Of a stretch of 64,000 nucleotides of DNA, positions 35,101 to 41,100 are shown piece after piece. Where the stretch lies: NCBI RefSeq assembly GCF_003790525.1, contig NZ_CP033635.1, one strand, 5' to 3'. Source of the stretch: Escherichia coli. Its GTDB lineage: Bacteria > Pseudomonadota > Gammaproteobacteria > Enterobacterales > Enterobacteriaceae. A program made the position numbers. How positions within the stretch are numbered: position 1 is the first letter of the stretch; each line of letters begins with the position of its first letter.

Positions 35101-38100
35101 GAGAAGTTTTTTGACGCTTGTATTAACTTCATGTGGGAAAGAACGTTCAGATGTTTGAATGATATTAAAGAGCGATTGCATTACGAATTTAAGAGGAATA
35201 TTTTAGATTTAATTGCCACTCTTAGGCATCAAATTGATATCTATAGAAGACGTAGTTCCATGAGAGAAATCCAGGAGAAAATTGACCTCTTGGCCGAAAG
35301 CATTAATAAAGAAATTGCAACAGTCTGCGATTGGTTAAATGTACTTGAGTATAACGAGGAGAAAATATATAAAATATCATCCGTGATGCAGGCATGTAGG
35401 AAAACTTTTTTTAATATACACCATTGTTCTGATGATGCTATCGTTTTTGATTCAATGTATCATGATGATGAACCAAAATTATCTTATAAAGAAGCCAAGC
35501 CTCTAATCACATCAATAATAACAGCGTTAAACAATGCTATGGCCTATGGTAATAAAAAAATCTTTATCAGTATTAAGCCTGAAGAAAAGTCATGGAAAAT
35601 AACCATCAGAAATTTGATAATTGAGACAAAGAACAGAACTACCAACCAAATTTTACAAGAGATTGATGATAAAATAAAACGAGGGGATAATAGTCTAAAT
35701 ATAAAAGAAGGCGGAGCTGGAATATATAAAATATATGATTTATTATGTTCATTACCGCAAAGATTTAATGTGAATCATTGCATCCAAAATAACGAATTCA
35801 TTTTAAATATTGAGATAAAGAAATGAAAATTCTTCTTGTTGAGGATATTGAATATAAGCGTGATAAGGTGATCGGTTTACTAGAGTCTATTTCTGCCGAT
35901 GTATCAGTCGATGTAGCTAAATCTTATGTTTCGGCAGTAAATTCCGCAACCAGTAAAACTTATGATCTTATAATATTAGATATGAGCCTTCCCACTTACG
36001 ATAAGGGGCCTAATGAAAATGGAGGTCGCTTCAGAGTGTACGGAGGGAAAGATATTATTCGCAAGTTAATGAGAGGAAAAGAGCATCCAGTAGTTGTGGT
36101 TTTAACACAACATACAACTTTTGGTGAAATTGGTGAGCAAAAAAATACTGACACTCTATCACAAGAGTTGAATGCTTTAATGGGATCAAAATTTATAGGT
36201 ATTGTAAAATATGACTCAACTAAACCTCAATGGAAAGATGAAATAAAAAAAGTCGTACAGGATTTGTTATGATTAAAATATTAATAGTTGATGACAATAA
36301 ATCTAGAATTGAAAAGCTAAAATCTAGCTTAACTGAACTCATCACAAAAAACATGATAAGGATTGATGAGAAATATACAAGTGACGCCGCAAAAATCGCG
36401 CTCAAGTTAAATCAATATGATTATTTAATTCTTGATGTCTTTTTACCTAAAAAAGATAACTATAGCCCAGATGAAAGAAATGGATTAGGTCTTTTAAAAC
36501 AAATAAATTCAGATTCTAAATTTTACTCTCCAAAAAAAATAGTTGGCATAACTGCATATCTGAATGATATATCCAGATATGAATCCGAATTCAGAGAATA
36601 TGCTTCAATTATATTCGAGGCTCGACGTAATGATACTGGATGGCTTGAATCACTCAAAAAAATCATTGAAAAGGATGTTGAATCTCAAGTAAGTTATAAT
36701 CTCAATGAAAAAGATAGTGTTTTAATAACAGTACACGGTATAAGAACCTACGCACCTTGGCAAAATACCATAGAAGAAAAAATAACCAATATATCAAATA
36801 AATTTAACTATATAAAATTCAATTATGGTTTTCTAAATATTCTTTGTTTTTTATTCCCTCCGACTAGACATCTATTTGCAAGAAAAATAATCCAAGACAT
36901 ACGAATTACAGTGGAATCAAATAAGAATAAAAGAATTTATATTATTTGTCATAGTTTTGGTACCTACCTTGTATATTGTGCCTTAAGTAAACTGACACAT
37001 ACGGATGCAAAAATTGAATGTTTAATTTTTTCTGGTAGCGTATTAAAACGTACTACCTCATTGAAAACATTAAAGCAACATTGTAATGCAATAATAAATG
37101 ACTGTGCTGTAAGTGATTATATTTTATTACTATGTAAAATGTTAGTCATTGGCTTGGGCGATGCAGGCAGAAAAGGGTTTATTGAGCCAAATGATGGTGT
37201 TTTCATTAACCGCTATTTTAAAGGAGGACATTCAACTTACTTCGAAGATAAAGATTTCATAGAAGTGAACTGGCTTCCTTTAATTTTTGACAATAAAAAT
37301 ATCGCGTCACGAGATGAAAGAAAAAATCATATTTTTTCCGATGTCACCAATGCTTTGCAAAATATAATTGAATATTTAAAAATACCAATATGGTTATTTT
37401 TTTCTTTTTTATTGATAGCACTGGTATTATAATATCACTGCACATTAAAAATCATATTGGAGCTTCCCTCATAAAGCTCCAATATAAAACACCATCATTT
37501 CAATAGTACCTGCAGCTAATTAAAACTAGTCAACCGAAAAAATTAATCACTTTAAACTTTAGTATGCACTTATACTTTCTTAATAATAGAAAAACACTTA
37601 CAAATAAATTAATCATGTCAATCTCCGTAACTACAACCTCGGAAAGTATGTAAACAGGAATCATTACTGAAAAAAACACGATTTCAGCAGAATTCTAGAA
37701 ATATCCTGTGCTGCTGCCGATACCAACTTTCGTATATACTACCCTTCACGTTCCTTCTCGTTTTTATAAAACTATTCATTTATAACTATCAATAGGCATC
37801 ATAACCAATGTAAGTGTAAGTACTGGTGAACGAGTGTCAATGGAGTTAAAAGTATCACTTCATCCTGCTAAATATAAGTTATCCTACGTTTTAATATACT
37901 AGAACTCAAAATTAGAATGGTTTGTTAATATTAATAGATTTACCATTGATATCTTTTGACACCTTAAAAAAATCTATACCTTTTATCCACTGACATAACT
38001 GTTGTAGTGTTTCCATTGCCTGTTCTAACTCATTTTTTTCAATTCTAACGCCCCCATGATGGCTACAGGAATTTAATAATTCCTGAGCTAGAGTGATGTC

Positions 38101-41100
38101 ATTCTTCAGCTTATTAGGCAGACCGAGAAAATTAATCACCCTCGACAAACTCCCAAGCATTAACTTTTGATAGTCTTCTTCAAATTCCTTTTCAGCCCTA
38201 ATATTTACTAACATCAAAACATACTCAAGATAACGCCGTGCTGTATTTCCCTTTTCTTGTAACGCATCTCTATCATACTCTTTAATATCACTCAATTCCT
38301 GTAGTAGAAAATCAAACTTAGCTATTGCCAAGTTAAGATTGATGTTATGCATTAGCAATTCGGATGCATGATTGCTAACAGGTACACGATTTGGTGGACG
38401 TATCATTATAGCCGTCGTGTAACAATTTATATTTGGTATCTGTATAAATTCCTCACCGGAACGCGTAACACGTTGAACTTCTACCATATAGTGGCCAAAT
38501 TTATCAATCTCATATGACCGACAACGAGCAGAATATAATTTATTTAGCTTTTTCCTGTCTTGATAATATGATTTTATTAATACAAAAAATGCTCTTTCGT
38601 GCTCAATAATTAAAATAGTCTCTATTGAAGCATGGTACAACCATCCGTTATTCCATGTTAATTCAAGCTGTCTATTTCCATCTTTAAAATCAATTTTAGT
38701 TATACGATCCCAACTTCCTCTATCAATAAAATCGACAATATTGCGCCCAAATCCTTGATAGTTATTTTTAACAATGTGCAATAGTACTGCCTTTATTTTA
38801 TCCCAATCATGAATTTCTTTTTCATATTCACCATTTAATATATTCGTTAAATCACTGTGAAAATTTTCATATGTCATAAGTATCTCTTTTTAGATAAAAT
38901 TGGATTTCGACAAGTAGACGTTGATAACAACAAGACTGGTTAGATAATTTAATCATTGATGCAACGTTTAGCGTTGAATCAATTGACATCATTACCAATT
39001 CTTCCAATGCAATCAGCATACCACTGCATCATCTCCCTCCGCCCTTCCAGATACAAAGCATGGTTGTACGTCCCACGAATCGCATTCTTATCGACATGCG
39101 CAAGCTGGGTTTCAATCCATGCCGTATTGAACCCTTCCTCGTGCAAAATCGTACTCATCGTGTGACGGAAACCATGCCCCGTTACCTTCCCCGTATACCC
39201 AATCCGTTTGAATACCTGATTCATACTCGCTTCACTCATCGTCTTGCGGGGATCATTTCGCCCTGGGAATACCAGTGGATATTGCCCAGATATCACCTTG
39301 AGTTGTTGTACGATTTCCAGCGCTTGGGTAGATAGGGGGACAAGGTGAGGCCGTTTCATCTTCATACGCTCTGCAGGTATTTCCCACACTGCTTTTTCAA
39401 GATCAAACTCACTCCAGAAAGCACCTCGTAGCTCGCCAGTACGAACTCCTGTAAGGATCAGCAGACGAGCGGCAAGAACAACTAACGGGCTTCCTGTGTA
39501 GCCTGCGAGAGCTTTAAAGAAGTCTGGTAACTCCTCAACAGTAAGGAAGGGATAATGCTTCGATTCATGCCCTGACATTGCGCTGGTTAGATCCGCTGCA
39601 GGATTGTATTCCGCACGACCGGTAACGATGGCGTAACGAAAGACTTCACTGCAACGCTGGCGAACCTTCTTGGCCTTCTCTGTCGCGCCACGGCTTTCCA
39701 TTCGACGTAGCACATTCAGCAGAACCAAAGGCTTGATGTCATTCACCGGCAGTTGGCCAATATAAGGGAAAATATCTTTATTGAAGGCTTCGATAATGTC
39801 GGAGGCATAACCTTCTGACCACCGGCTCACCTTCGTTCCGTGCCATTCAAGTGCCACAGCCTGAAACGTATTATTGAGCTGCACATCGCGAACCAACTTT
39901 TCTTCTTTCTTGGCAAACGATGGGTCGATACCTTCGGCCAGCTTTTTCTTGGCTTCATCACGCAGTGCCCTCGCTTGTGCAAGGGACACTGCCGGATAGA
40001 CACCAAAAGCCATACGTTTCTCTTTTCCATTGAAGCGATATTTCATCCGCCAGTATCGAGAACCAGAAGGAACAACTTCAAGATACAAGCCTGCACCATC
40101 TGCTAGCTTGTAGGCTTTCTCTCTGGGTTTAGCAGCATCTACCTGTCGAGCATTAAGCTTCATTGGGGGCATCTCCCTGGACCGAACACAGAATGCCCCC
40201 ACTTATGCCCCCAACTGCGACTTGATTTCGGTTGAGTCCAGTTGATAACAGGAGATAAGATACGGGCCAGAAACCGCAGTATACGGGCTTTTAGTTGATT
40301 TCGGTAGACTTGGGAAGAGTTTGAAATGGTGCCGATAATAGGAGTCGAACCTACGACCTTCGCATTACGAATGCGCTGCTCTACCAACTGAGCTATATCG
40401 GCCCTGAAAGGACATGATTCACGAACGTGAATCACGGTGGACAAGGTTAAAACTAACCGGGCGATGCGTCAATGGCCTTGTGAATCAAATGGCTACTTTT
40501 GCATCACCCGGTTTTATTTACGCACGAATGGTGTAATCACCAATGCCGATCCACTTGTAAGTGGTCAGTGCTTCCAGGCCCATCGGGCCACGCGCGTGGA
40601 GTTTTTGTGTGCTTACCGCCACTTCCGCTCCCAGACCAAACTGGCCGCCATCGGTAAAACGCGTAGAGGCGTTAACGTAAACAGCGGATGAATCTACTTC
40701 ATTAACAAAACGCTGGGCGTTGCGCATATCGCGGGTCAGGATCGCATCGGAGTGTTGCGTGCCGTGTTCACGAATATGGGCGATAGCATCGTCAAGATCG
40801 CTGACGATTTTGACGTTCAAGTCTAATGACAGGAACTCATCGTCATACTCTTCGGCTTTAACAGCCACCACCTTCGCGGGGCCTGCCTGCAATTGCGCCA
40901 GCGCAGCAGCATCTGCGTGTAACGTCACGCCACTTTCCGCCATTTGCTTGCTTAATGCGGGCAGGAAGCTATCTGCGATGTTTTTATTTACCAGCAACGT
41001 TTCTACCGTATTACACGTGCTCGGGCGCTGAGTTTTCGCGTTGACAATCACTTTCAATGCTTCAGCGATCTCTGCACTTTCATCAACGTAAATATGGCAT

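What the first reader, a model, noticed from the sequence alone, without database searches (positions are those of the whole stretch)
37912..38877. Orphan 321-aa protein convergent to the operon, same AT-rich signature
No recognisable domain, no TM segment, and codon usage matching the neighbouring cargo rather than the host core. It sits between the integrase and the three-gene operon, a typical place for a single-gene defence or accessory factor.
Basis: seen in the sequence. Interest (0 to 1): 0.5.

Follow-up and report, generated by a model that had tools for sequence, protein, structure and literature searches.

The report
Stand-alone HEPN-domain candidate defence gene
The 321-codon gene is real and independent of the neighbouring three-gene operon; it encodes an uncharacterised two-domain protein whose C-terminal half has the fold of a HEPN RNase, so it is most likely a self-contained mobile toxin or defence gene, though this is untested.

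Summary
The ORF at 37912-38877 (-) is confirmed. It has 321 codons, 32.6% GC and no TM segment, and it matches nothing in Pfam, NCBIfam, PADLOC or PHROGs. It is under purifying selection (dN/dS about 0.1). It is not an orphan: full-length relatives occur in many Enterobacterales and, more distantly, in Pseudomonas, Cyanobacteria (Sll1401), Bacteroidota and Firmicutes.

Thirteen independent genomic contexts share no neighbouring gene and no flanking DNA. None carries the histidine-kinase/response-regulator operon. Other copies of that Detocs-type operon, on Enterobacter and Klebsiella plasmids, lack the ORF. It is therefore a single-gene unit that happens to sit in the variable, defence-rich slot next to the thrW integrase.

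Best reading (about 0.55): a stand-alone sensor-HEPN effector of the abortive-infection or anti-mobile-element type, analogous to RAZR. It is a new variant of a known kind and of moderate interest.

The parts
37912..38877 (-). Complete CDS, 321 aa (WP_000220589.1). It is a single-gene unit.
   Evidence: ORF list and translation. RefSeq annotation. Full-length homologues. dN/dS 0.06-0.13. DNA similarity to other loci is confined to the CDS. No conserved flanking peptide.
38383..38877 (-). N-terminal alpha/beta domain (residues 1-165). It has two helices, a roughly 10-strand sheet and one helix. No fold could be assigned confidently. Proposed role: sensor or regulatory domain (inferred).
38707..38733 (-). 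Invariant acidic cluster V-D49-F-I-D52-x-G-x-W56-D57 on a beta-hairpin of the N-domain.
   Evidence: D49 and D57 are present in 33/33 sequences, D52 in 32/33, W56 in 30/33 and F50 in 31/33 of the broad family alignment.
37930..38373 (-). C-terminal HEPN (DUF4145-like) helical domain, residues 169-316.
38212..38238 (-). Helix-2 motif R214-R-x-x-E218-x-x-L-(K/M)222. This is the HEPN E-x3-[KR] acidic motif preceded by an invariant Arg.
   Evidence: R214 and E218 are present in 33/33 sequences, R215 in 29/33, and K at position 222 in 27/33. The E-x3-[KR] motif in helix-2 is described in PMC3710099.
38050..38073 (-). [quoted passage not shown] The canonical His and the polar residue are kept, but the canonical Arg is replaced.
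   Evidence: N269, H273 and G276 are present in 33/33 sequences and S272 in 32/33. Position 268 is L/A/S/T/C/M and never R or K. The AF2 helix spans residues 255-272. The expected position of the Rx4-6H motif is taken from PMC3710099.
37452..37487 (-). Terminator-like hairpin (15-bp stem followed by a T-run) on the ORF's strand, 425 nt beyond its stop codon. It may end the ORF's transcript, but this attribution is uncertain.
   Evidence: Consensus scan found 2 terminator-like sites against 0.3 expected. The intervening 479 nt are not unusually structured (z -0.78) and are not conserved elsewhere.

Best explanation
The ORF is an autonomous, horizontally mobile single-gene module. It is not part of the adjacent Detocs-type operon. 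Its product is a soluble two-domain protein. The N-terminal alpha/beta domain is previously undescribed and carries an invariant acidic triad (D49/D52/D57). The C-terminal domain is a DUF4145-like HEPN domain.

The proposed mechanism is inferred, not shown. The N-domain acts as sensor or regulator, responding to an invader-derived protein, nucleic acid or small ligand. On activation, the HEPN domain, probably as a dimer, cleaves cellular and/or invader RNA. It would do so through a variant active site built from H273, N269 and E218, with R214 replacing the missing canonical Arg. The result would be growth arrest (abortive infection) or loss of the invading phage or plasmid.

Shown here: the gene is real and under selection; it has a two-domain architecture with a HEPN fold; the motif conservation is as described; it has no conserved partner; it has a patchy, AT-rich, island/satellite/ICE/plasmid-associated distribution.

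Inferred: RNase activity, the sensor role of the N-domain, and the defence phenotype.
For: Autonomy:
- 13 independent contexts share no neighbouring gene.
- Nucleotide similarity stops at the CDS borders.
- tblastx of 900-nt flanks finds nothing shared between independent contexts.
- In Serratia the gene is a roughly 2-kb AT-rich islet between core genes.

Mobile and defence context:
- thrW island next to Detocs-type PDC-M60 genes.
- Citrobacter conjugative element between an orphan MTase and ArdC, 3 kb from Septu PtuA/PtuB (4e-200, 1.5e-98) and a type I RM system.
- Salmonella plasmid with a PDC-S06 candidate (2e-199), a RelA/SpoT-domain gene, ParDE and TacAT.
- P4-like satellites in Providencia and in 306 O157:H7/O55:H7 genomes, where the satellite also carries LmuA-like cargo.
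- Pseudomonas copy convergent with a BrxH/DrmD-like helicase.
- The thrW integrase-proximal slot holds Lamassu or an MTase cluster in other strains.

Fold:
- AF2 pLDDT 87, pTM 0.82.
- Foldseek finds full-length relatives (TM 0.7-0.8) annotated DUF4145 or HEPN.
- A profile of distant members reaches proteins that UniRef names DUF4145.

Active site:
- H273, N269, E218 and R214 are invariant in 33/33 sequences; K222 is present in 27/33.
- HEPN families with the His but a relocated basic residue are documented (Parep1/8 and c2405).

Precedent:
- RAZR/PD-T7-4 is a single protein with a sensor domain plus a DUF4145 HEPN RNase that acts by abortive infection (PMC13017515).
- The Ishtar HEPN proteins act as single-gene anti-plasmid systems (bioRxiv 10.64898/2026.07.06.735840).
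Against: - No experiment exists for this family. Neither accession appears in the searchable literature.
- There is no hit to any PADLOC model.
- The canonical Arg of Rx4-6H is absent in every member. That Arg is required in RNase L/KEN, PrrC and RAZR, so RNase activity is not assured.
- I could not inspect model coordinates to verify that R214 lies next to H273.
- Only about 5 of 13 contexts have a known or candidate defence system within 10 kb. Several are lone islets with no informative neighbours.
- No Pfam DUF4145 match reaches even E<=0.1 in any of the 33 members.
- A constitutively expressed HEPN toxin without an antitoxin would need tight self-control, which is only assumed here.
Confidence: 0.55

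Rival explanations
1. The ORF is a fourth, accessory component (sensor, regulator or immunity factor) of the neighbouring Detocs-type histidine-kinase/receiver/hydrolase operon.
For: It is immediately adjacent and convergent. It shares AT-rich codon usage with the operon (cosine 0.945). It co-occurs with the operon in all 16 E. coli genomes that carry either.
Against: The 16 genomes carry one >=99.9% identical island, so the co-occurrence is not independent. None of the 12 other contexts of homologues has the operon. Six plasmids with full-length homologous operons carry no homologue of the ORF anywhere. Detocs is defined and functional as three genes (bioRxiv 10.1101/2023.01.24.525353). The gene family is AT-rich in every host.
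Confidence: 0.04
2. The protein is a KNTase/LinB-like enzyme. On this reading the N-domain is a divergent Pol-beta-type nucleotidyltransferase using the D49/D52/D57 carboxylates. The HEPN-like domain would be a non-nucleolytic substrate-binding domain, or the protein would be a fused, self-modifying MNT-HEPN toxin-antitoxin pair.
Confidence: 0.12
3. The gene serves the mobile element rather than the host. It could be a counter-defence factor, an addiction or stabilisation toxin, or an RNA-processing regulator of the island or satellite.
For: It occurs at the ends of P4-like satellites next to the primase or delta genes. On a conjugative element it lies between an orphan methyltransferase and the anti-restriction protein ArdC. 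On one plasmid it sits among toxin-antitoxin pairs. In the window it lies 101 nt downstream of int on the same strand, with no strong promoter match between them.
Against: Several copies are lone chromosomal islets with no recognisable mobile-element genes. It is essentially absent from sequenced plasmids (one pseudogene in 72,556 records) and from phages. There is no conserved partner that could act as an antitoxin.
Confidence: 0.1
4. The ORF is a decaying or functionless hitch-hiker in AT-rich foreign DNA.
For: It has no annotation, no profile hits and a patchy distribution.
Against: dN/dS is 0.06-0.13 with saturated dS. Full-length conservation runs down to about 20% identity across phyla, with invariant motif residues. 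The AF2 model is confident. The chance probability of the open frame is about 1e-11.
Confidence: 0.02

Closest known systems
RAZR (PD-T7-4), the ring-activated zinc-finger RNase of E. coli (PMC13017515)
   Same: Both are single-gene systems found in the E. coli accessory genome. Both have an N-terminal non-catalytic domain followed by a divergent C-terminal DUF4145-type HEPN domain. RAZR is shown to be an abortive-infection RNase activated by phage proteins. This is the best functional analogue.
   Different: RAZR's N-domain is a Cys4 zinc ribbon of about 65 aa; here it is a 165-aa alpha/beta domain with no Cys4 motif. RAZR needs R146 and H154; here the His is conserved but the equivalent Arg is not. 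There is no PADLOC hit to any PD-T7-4 model and no detectable sequence similarity.
DUF4145-like clade of the HEPN superfamily (PF13643; Anantharaman et al. 2013, PMC3710099)
   Same: [quoted passage not shown] Distant full-length relatives carry the DUF4145 name in UniProt/UniRef. The clade is typically fused to varied N-terminal domains in conflict systems.
   Different: No member of this family reaches the Pfam DUF4145 model, even at E 0.1. The canonical Arg is missing. The N-terminal domain is not among the fusion partners listed for DUF4145 (REase, helicase, Zn ribbon, TM, TIR, AbiJ-NTD1, DpnII-NTD).
HEPN families with a conserved His but no canonical Arg (c2405 with AbiTii N-domain; Parep1/8) (PMC3710099)
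   Same: They show the same kind of motif deviation: the His is kept and the Arg is lost, with other conserved basic residues proposed to compensate. c2405 is also an N-terminal alpha+beta domain followed by a HEPN domain, and is found in E. coli.
   Different: There is no Pfam hit to AbiTii or Abi_C at E<=10. AbiTii is characterised by one conserved Glu, not an Asp triad. Homology to c2405 was not tested directly because no sequence was available.
Ishtar (ist1/ist2), single-gene anti-conjugation HEPN proteins of Acinetobacter (bioRxiv 10.64898/2026.07.06.735840)
   Same: They are single-gene systems combining a HEPN (DUF4145 or DUF3644) domain with an uncharacterised beta-sheet/three-helix domain. 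They have a patchy distribution between core genes, in integron remnants and near defence genes.
   Different: The reported domain order is the opposite (HEPN at the N-terminus). The organism differs. The sequences (XZW63086.1, MGQ1310977.1) were not available to compare.
HEPN-MNT toxin-antitoxin pairs and KNTase-type nucleotidyltransferase-HEPN fusions
   Different: There is no adjacent MNT gene in any context. The nucleotidyltransferase signature motifs are absent. The canonical Rx4H of HEPN toxins is not conserved.
Detocs (DtcA/DtcB/DtcC), the neighbouring system
   Same: The only shared features are physical adjacency and AT-rich composition in this one island.
   Different: There is no co-occurrence elsewhere and no shared domains. 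Detocs works as three genes without such a partner.

Membership tests
HEPN superfamily | [quoted passage not shown] | tested here: met
HEPN superfamily | Catalytic His of Rx4-6H at the end of helix-3 or the start of the helix-3/helix-4 loop | tested here: met
   H273 is invariant (33/33) and lies directly after helix 255-272. N269 is invariant at the 'polar residue after R' position. The expected motif position is taken from PMC3710099.
HEPN superfamily | Arg of the Rx4-6H motif | tested here: not met
   Positions 266-268 are never R or K in the 33 sequences (position 268 is L16 A9 S3 T2 C2 M1). An invariant R214 on helix-2 might substitute, but its proximity to H273 could not be checked.
HEPN superfamily | Second conserved acidic residue in helix-2, typically as E-x3-[KR] | tested here: met
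   E218 is present in 33/33 sequences. Position 222 is K in 27/33 (M or I in the enterobacterial subgroup).
HEPN superfamily | Metal-independent RNase activity and dimerisation to form a composite active site | not testable with these tools
   This requires biochemistry or multimer modelling. Only monomer predictions were available.
Pfam DUF4145 (PF13643) | Significant match to the family HMM | tested here: not met
   There is no DUF4145 hit at E<=10 for the query or at E<=0.1 for any of 33 family members. No precomputed Pfam domain is recorded for the 79 distant relatives.
Pfam DUF4145 (PF13643) | Relatedness to proteins annotated as DUF4145 | tested here: inconclusive
   Full-length Foldseek relatives (E 1e-14 to 1e-21, TM 0.7-0.8) are named 'DUF4145 domain-containing protein'. 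UniRef gives the same name to P0102 and P0148, which are reached by the family profile. The basis of those names could not be inspected.
RAZR / PD-T7-4 | N-terminal Cys4 zinc-ribbon domain plus a match to the PD-T7-4 model | tested here: not met
   There is no PADLOC family at E<=0.1. The N-domain is a 165-aa alpha/beta fold without a Cys4 motif.
Detocs (as an extra component) | Conserved co-occurrence with dtcA/dtcB/dtcC across independent genomes | tested here: not met
   None of the 12 other contexts has the operon. Six plasmid-borne operons lack the ORF.
HEPN-MNT toxin-antitoxin pair / KNTase-like fusion | Pol-beta nucleotidyltransferase partner or domain with hG[GS]x9-13-D-h-[DE]-h and a third carboxylate | tested here: not met
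Ishtar anti-plasmid HEPN proteins | N-terminal HEPN domain followed by a C-terminal beta-sheet/three-helix domain, with sequence homology to ist1/ist2 | tested here: inconclusive
   The domain order here is the reverse of that reported.
Known phage structural or regulatory proteins | Match to a PHROG family or presence in phage genomes | tested here: not met
   The only PHROG hit (phrog_622, E 0.002) was not reproduced in 10 relatives. There is no real tblastn hit in 50,697 phage records.

The most novel reading that the evidence does not exclude
The family could be a previously unrecognised, multi-phylum class of single-chain immune or toxin modules. In this reading a degenerate nucleotidyltransferase-like N-domain, with an invariant Asp triad, controls a HEPN RNase in cis. 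The control could work by nucleotide or metal sensing or by self-nucleotidylation. The HEPN catalytic Arg would have migrated from helix-3 to helix-2. In effect this would be a fused, self-regulating MNT-HEPN system. It is carried by P4-like satellites in the whole O157:H7 lineage and by defence hotspots elsewhere.
Probability: 0.1. Interest if true: 0.65.

Novelty: new variant of a known kind. Interest (0 to 1): 0.4.

Why it matters
If it is confirmed as a defence or abortive-infection gene, it would add one more single-protein HEPN system with two distinctive features. The first is a sensor domain with no characterised relative. The second is an active-site layout that lacks the textbook Arg. 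Both bear on how HEPN RNases are kept silent and then switched on.

A 44%-identical paralogue is fixed in a P4-like satellite of the O157:H7/O55:H7 lineage (306 of 5426 complete E. coli genomes). It could therefore influence phage susceptibility in an important pathogen lineage, including susceptibility to Stx phages or therapeutic phages.

For annotation, the result separates this gene cleanly from the adjacent Detocs-type system. It also gives a structural label to a family that is currently annotated only as 'hypothetical'.

Tried and rejected
- Sequence-profile searches of the query and of up to 33 relatives found nothing reproducible: Pfam, NCBIfam, PADLOC, PHROGs, and PDB sequences with full-length, N-domain and C-domain profiles.
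- The phrog_622 hit (E 0.002) was rejected as chance, because none of 10 relatives reproduced it.
- A conserved partner gene, small ORF or ncRNA in the flanks was rejected. Between independent contexts, blastn similarity stops at the CDS and tblastx of the flanks finds nothing. Rfam finds nothing in the gaps around the ORF. The 479-nt 3' region is not unusually structured.
- Linkage to the operon was rejected (see the rival explanations).
- A phage or plasmid origin was rejected: one pseudogene in PLSDB, none in INPHARED, and 5 loci in IMG/VR, four of them near contig ends.
- A second database search with the broad alignment returned only the known close relatives, because of the candidate cap. 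A profile of the distant subgroup worked better.
- I did not run the expensive genome-wide or metagenome locus scans, judging 13 independent contexts sufficient.

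
Full report
**Observation**

The window is an Escherichia coli chromosome segment essentially identical to strain SMS-3-5 around thrW. 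The ORF listing gives an ATG-initiated ORF at 37912..38877 on the minus strand, 321 aa. RefSeq calls it hypothetical protein WP_000220589.1. It lies 101 nt downstream of, and co-oriented with, a P4-type tyrosine integrase (38979-40202; NCBIfam PRK09692, 1.9e-89, below the model's curated cut-off). The integrase abuts tRNA-Thr(CGT) at 40327-40402. The ORF is convergent with a + strand three-gene operon at 32551-37432.

The region 32-39 kb is 29-37% GC against about 52% for the flanks. The ORF has GC 0.326 and GC3 0.273. Its codon usage resembles the operon (cosine 0.945) far more than proA, proB, phoE and frsA (0.70). The highest 19-residue hydropathy mean is 1.25, so there is no TM helix. At this composition a 321-codon open frame has a probability of about 1e-11.

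**Is it a real gene, and is it an orphan?**

A word-indexed search of 5.8 billion proteins returned 36 clusters. They have full length (about 300-340 aa) and 31-76% identity. They come from Salmonella, Buttiauxella, Aeromonas, Pectobacterium, Serratia, Klebsiella, Enterobacter, Proteus, Citrobacter, Providencia and Pantoea.

An exhaustive phmmer scan of 1.84 billion cluster representatives found 59 at E<=1e-3, mostly about 320 aa. A profile of the distant subgroup reached 79 more clusters. These include Pseudomonas, Synechocystis Sll1401, Sporocytophaga, Hymenobacter, Dyadobacter and Verrucomicrobia.

Codon-aligned comparisons give dN/dS of 0.06-0.13 for the closest pairs, with dS at or above 1. 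The gene is a conserved, selected protein-coding gene from a rare but multi-phylum family. It is not an orphan.

**Relation to the operon**

The three upstream genes match PADLOC candidate system PDC-M60: A at 4.5e-55, B at 2e-35, and C at 1e-22 over the receiver domain. The architecture is a large kinase-like protein, a receiver-only protein, and a receiver plus alpha/beta-hydrolase plus C-terminal TM protein. This is the Detocs layout, of which a TM alpha/beta-hydrolase variant was shown to defend E. coli (bioRxiv 10.1101/2023.01.24.525353).

In complete E. coli genomes the ORF and the operon are each present in the same 16 of 5426 genomes. All copies are >=99.8% identical, so this is one island and not independent evidence.

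Independent evidence points the other way. Homologues were inspected in 12 further contexts, and none has the operon:
- Aeromonas.
- Proteus.
- A Citrobacter conjugative element.
- Providencia.
- Enterobacter.
- Serratia.
- A second E. coli lineage.
- A Salmonella plasmid.
- A high-GC metagenomic contig.
- O157:H7.
- Pseudomonas.
- Synechocystis.

Conversely, tblastn with the hydrolase response regulator found six plasmids with full-length homologues. Two were inspected, from Enterobacter hormaechei and Klebsiella variicola, and both carry complete three-gene operons. Yet tblastn with the ORF finds no homologue on any of those plasmids.

**Autonomy**

Nucleotide similarity between the window and the other loci begins 2-21 nt before the ATG. 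It ends near the stop codon, extending at most 77 nt beyond it in Serratia. All-against-all tblastx of 900-nt upstream and downstream flanks found nothing shared between independent contexts.

In Serratia the gene is a roughly 2-kb, 35-38% GC islet between phn/arsP and nrdDG in a >60% GC chromosome. The AT-rich signature thus travels with the gene and says nothing about a link to the operon. Rfam finds nothing in the gaps flanking the ORF. The 479-nt 3' region is not unusually structured. The unit of inheritance is the single CDS.

**Genomic company**

The gene repeatedly sits in accessory or conflict-rich DNA.
- Here it is next to the Detocs-type genes, in the slot directly behind the thrW integrase.
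- In strains with a 93%-identical integrase, that slot holds Lamassu (LmuA 3e-159, LmuB 1.5e-268) or a type II methyltransferase (3e-236) with a zinc-ribbon protein.
- In Citrobacter it lies between an orphan N6/N4 methyltransferase and ArdC on a T4SS-bearing element. It is 3 kb from Septu (PtuA 4e-200, PtuB 1.5e-98) and a type I RM system.
- On a Salmonella plasmid it is convergent with a RelA/SpoT-domain gene, near ParDE, TacAT and a PDC-S06 candidate (2e-199).
- In Providencia it follows an Ogr/Delta gene of a P4-like element.
- A 44%-identical paralogue (WP_000205213.1) is present in 306 of 5426 complete E. coli genomes, in the O157:H7/O55:H7 lineage. It sits beside the primase gene of a P4-like satellite whose integrase-proximal cargo includes an LmuA-like protein.
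- In Pseudomonas it is convergent with a BrxH/DrmD-like SNF2 helicase.

Other copies (Aeromonas, Proteus, Enterobacter, Serratia) have uninformative neighbours with no PADLOC hits. The gene is nearly absent from sequenced plasmids (one pseudogene among 72,556 records) and from phages, and it is rare in IMG/VR (5 loci).

**Structure**

AlphaFold2 on a 30-sequence alignment gave mean pLDDT 87 and pTM 0.82. The model has an N-terminal alpha/beta domain (residues 1-160) and a C-terminal helical domain (169-316).

Foldseek against AFDB50 found full-length matches (TM 0.65-0.81, E 1e-12 to 1e-21) in Bacteroidota, Firmicutes, Cyanobacteria and others. Many are named 'DUF4145 domain-containing' or 'HEPN domain-containing'. 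The two-domain architecture is therefore itself an ancient, conserved unit.

**The HEPN site**

In a 33-sequence alignment spanning about 20-100% identity (A2), eight columns are invariant: D49, D57, R214, E218, L244, N269, H273 and G276.

According to Anantharaman et al. [quoted passage not shown] The residue after the Arg is usually N, D or H. A second acidic residue, usually as E-x3-[KR], sits in helix-2 near the motif.

The model's helix 255-272 ends in L268-N269-x-C-S-H273, and helix 203-227 carries R214-R-x-x-E218-x-x-L-K222 (K in 27/33). The catalytic His, the polar Asn and the E-x3-K motif are therefore present at the canonical places. The canonical Arg position (268, or 266-267 for longer spacers) is never basic.

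HEPN families that keep the His and relocate the basic residue are described (Parep1/8, c2405). The invariant R214, one turn before E218 on the helix that faces the motif, is the obvious candidate. I could not examine coordinates to confirm its proximity to H273. At the sequence level no member matches Pfam DUF4145.

**The N-domain**

Its only family-wide invariant or near-invariant residues form an acidic hairpin: V-D49-F-I-D52-x-G-x-W56-D57. The nucleotidyltransferase signature (G[GS], 9-13 residues including a helix, then D-h-D) is not present. I treat the nucleotidyltransferase resemblance as a lead, not an assignment. It is nevertheless intriguing, because HEPN domains are classically partnered with minimal nucleotidyltransferases and lose part of Rx4-6H when fused behind them.

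**Mechanism**

The best-supported model is a self-contained sensor-effector protein. The N-domain would perceive an invader cue, and the HEPN domain would act as an RNase causing growth arrest or invader loss.

The nearest experimentally characterised analogue is RAZR (PD-T7-4). RAZR has an N-terminal zinc ribbon that binds ring-shaped phage proteins and a DUF4145-type HEPN domain that cleaves tRNA and rRNA (PMC13017515). The single-gene Ishtar anti-plasmid HEPN proteins are another analogue, with the reverse domain order.

I put this model at about 0.55. The fold, the autonomy and the mobile, patchy distribution are shown. The RNase activity, the sensor role and the defence phenotype are inferred.

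The rival explanations are:
- A KNTase-like nucleotidyltransferase or fused MNT-HEPN reading (0.12).
- A function that benefits the mobile element or counters defence (0.10).
- A fourth component of the Detocs-type operon (0.04).
- Junk (0.02).

**Novelty and verdict**

No paper in the searchable library mentions either accession, and no curated model covers the family. It belongs to a well-known kind (single-protein HEPN conflict modules). It combines that kind with an undescribed N-domain and a non-canonical active-site arrangement, so I rate it a new variant of a known kind.

A specialist would find it plausible rather than startling. Its fixation in the O157:H7 satellite and its multi-phylum spread give it some practical interest. 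Interest: 0.4.

Noticed in passing
window 32551-37432 (+): The three-gene operon has the Detocs architecture. It comprises a 1091-aa kinase-like protein, a 149-aa receiver, and a 387-aa receiver plus alpha/beta-hydrolase plus C-terminal TM effector. It matches PADLOC candidate PDC-M60A/B/C. Homologous operons (about 32-34% identity for the effector) sit on IncF plasmids of Enterobacter hormaechei and Klebsiella variicola. A TM-hydrolase Detocs from E. cloacae has been shown to defend E. coli.
   Followed up: partly
window 31968-32090 (-): A strong Rfam match to the isrC Hfq-binding sRNA (RF01387, 145 bits, E 5e-36). It overlaps the 5' end of the IS3-family transposase annotated at window 30909-32086.
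   Followed up: no
window 37452-37840 (-): The 479-nt gap between the two convergent genes contains three features. There is a promoter-like TTGACA-16-TACACT at 37840-37813. There is a GTG-initiated 49-aa strongly hydrophobic ORF at 37530-37679. There is a 15-bp-stem terminator-like hairpin at 37487-37452. None of these is conserved outside the 16 E. coli genomes that carry the island. It could be a small membrane peptide or type-I-toxin-like gene, or it could be noise in AT-rich DNA.
   Followed up: partly
L023 11992-12948 (E. coli O157:H7 SS52, NZ_CP010304.1 325788-326744): A 44%-identical paralogue (WP_000205213.1) is present in 306 of 5426 complete E. coli genomes, in the O157:H7/O55:H7 lineage. 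It lies next to the primase gene at one end of a P4-like satellite. The integrase-proximal cargo of that satellite includes an LmuA-like protein and 'ABC-three component system' genes.
   Followed up: partly
L031 4746-8701 and L032 5875-8756 (thrW loci of E. coli M217 and XJ6-3): The slot directly behind related (93% identical) thrW integrases carries different cargo in different strains. XJ6-3 has a Lamassu LmuA/LmuB pair. M217 has a type II methyltransferase with a zinc-ribbon protein and a hypothetical protein. This shows the slot is a variable defence hotspot.
   Followed up: partly
proteins P0063, P0065, P0073, P0078, P0088 (N-terminal extensions); P0044, P0092 (C-terminal extensions): Some distant family members carry an extra N-terminal region of about 190 aa (a Pfam DUF3775 hit in 1-3 of them). 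Others carry a mutually similar C-terminal region of about 270 aa with no Pfam match. These may be alternative sensor or partner domains.
   Followed up: no
L035 8383-10011 (Synechocystis sp. PCC 6803): Sll1401 of the model cyanobacterium Synechocystis is a member of the family. It lies immediately downstream of a DUF433/DUF5615 gene pair, an arrangement typical of toxin-antitoxin pairs. This offers a genetically tractable organism for testing the family.
   Followed up: no
window 28471-30376: Beyond the IS3 element the island continues with the conserved CP4-type backbone: CbtA toxin, YeeU antitoxin, a DUF987 protein, a RadC-like JAB protein and an antirestriction protein. The AT-rich Detocs-type operon plus the HEPN-gene segment is therefore a cargo module between the integrase and this backbone.
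   Followed up: no
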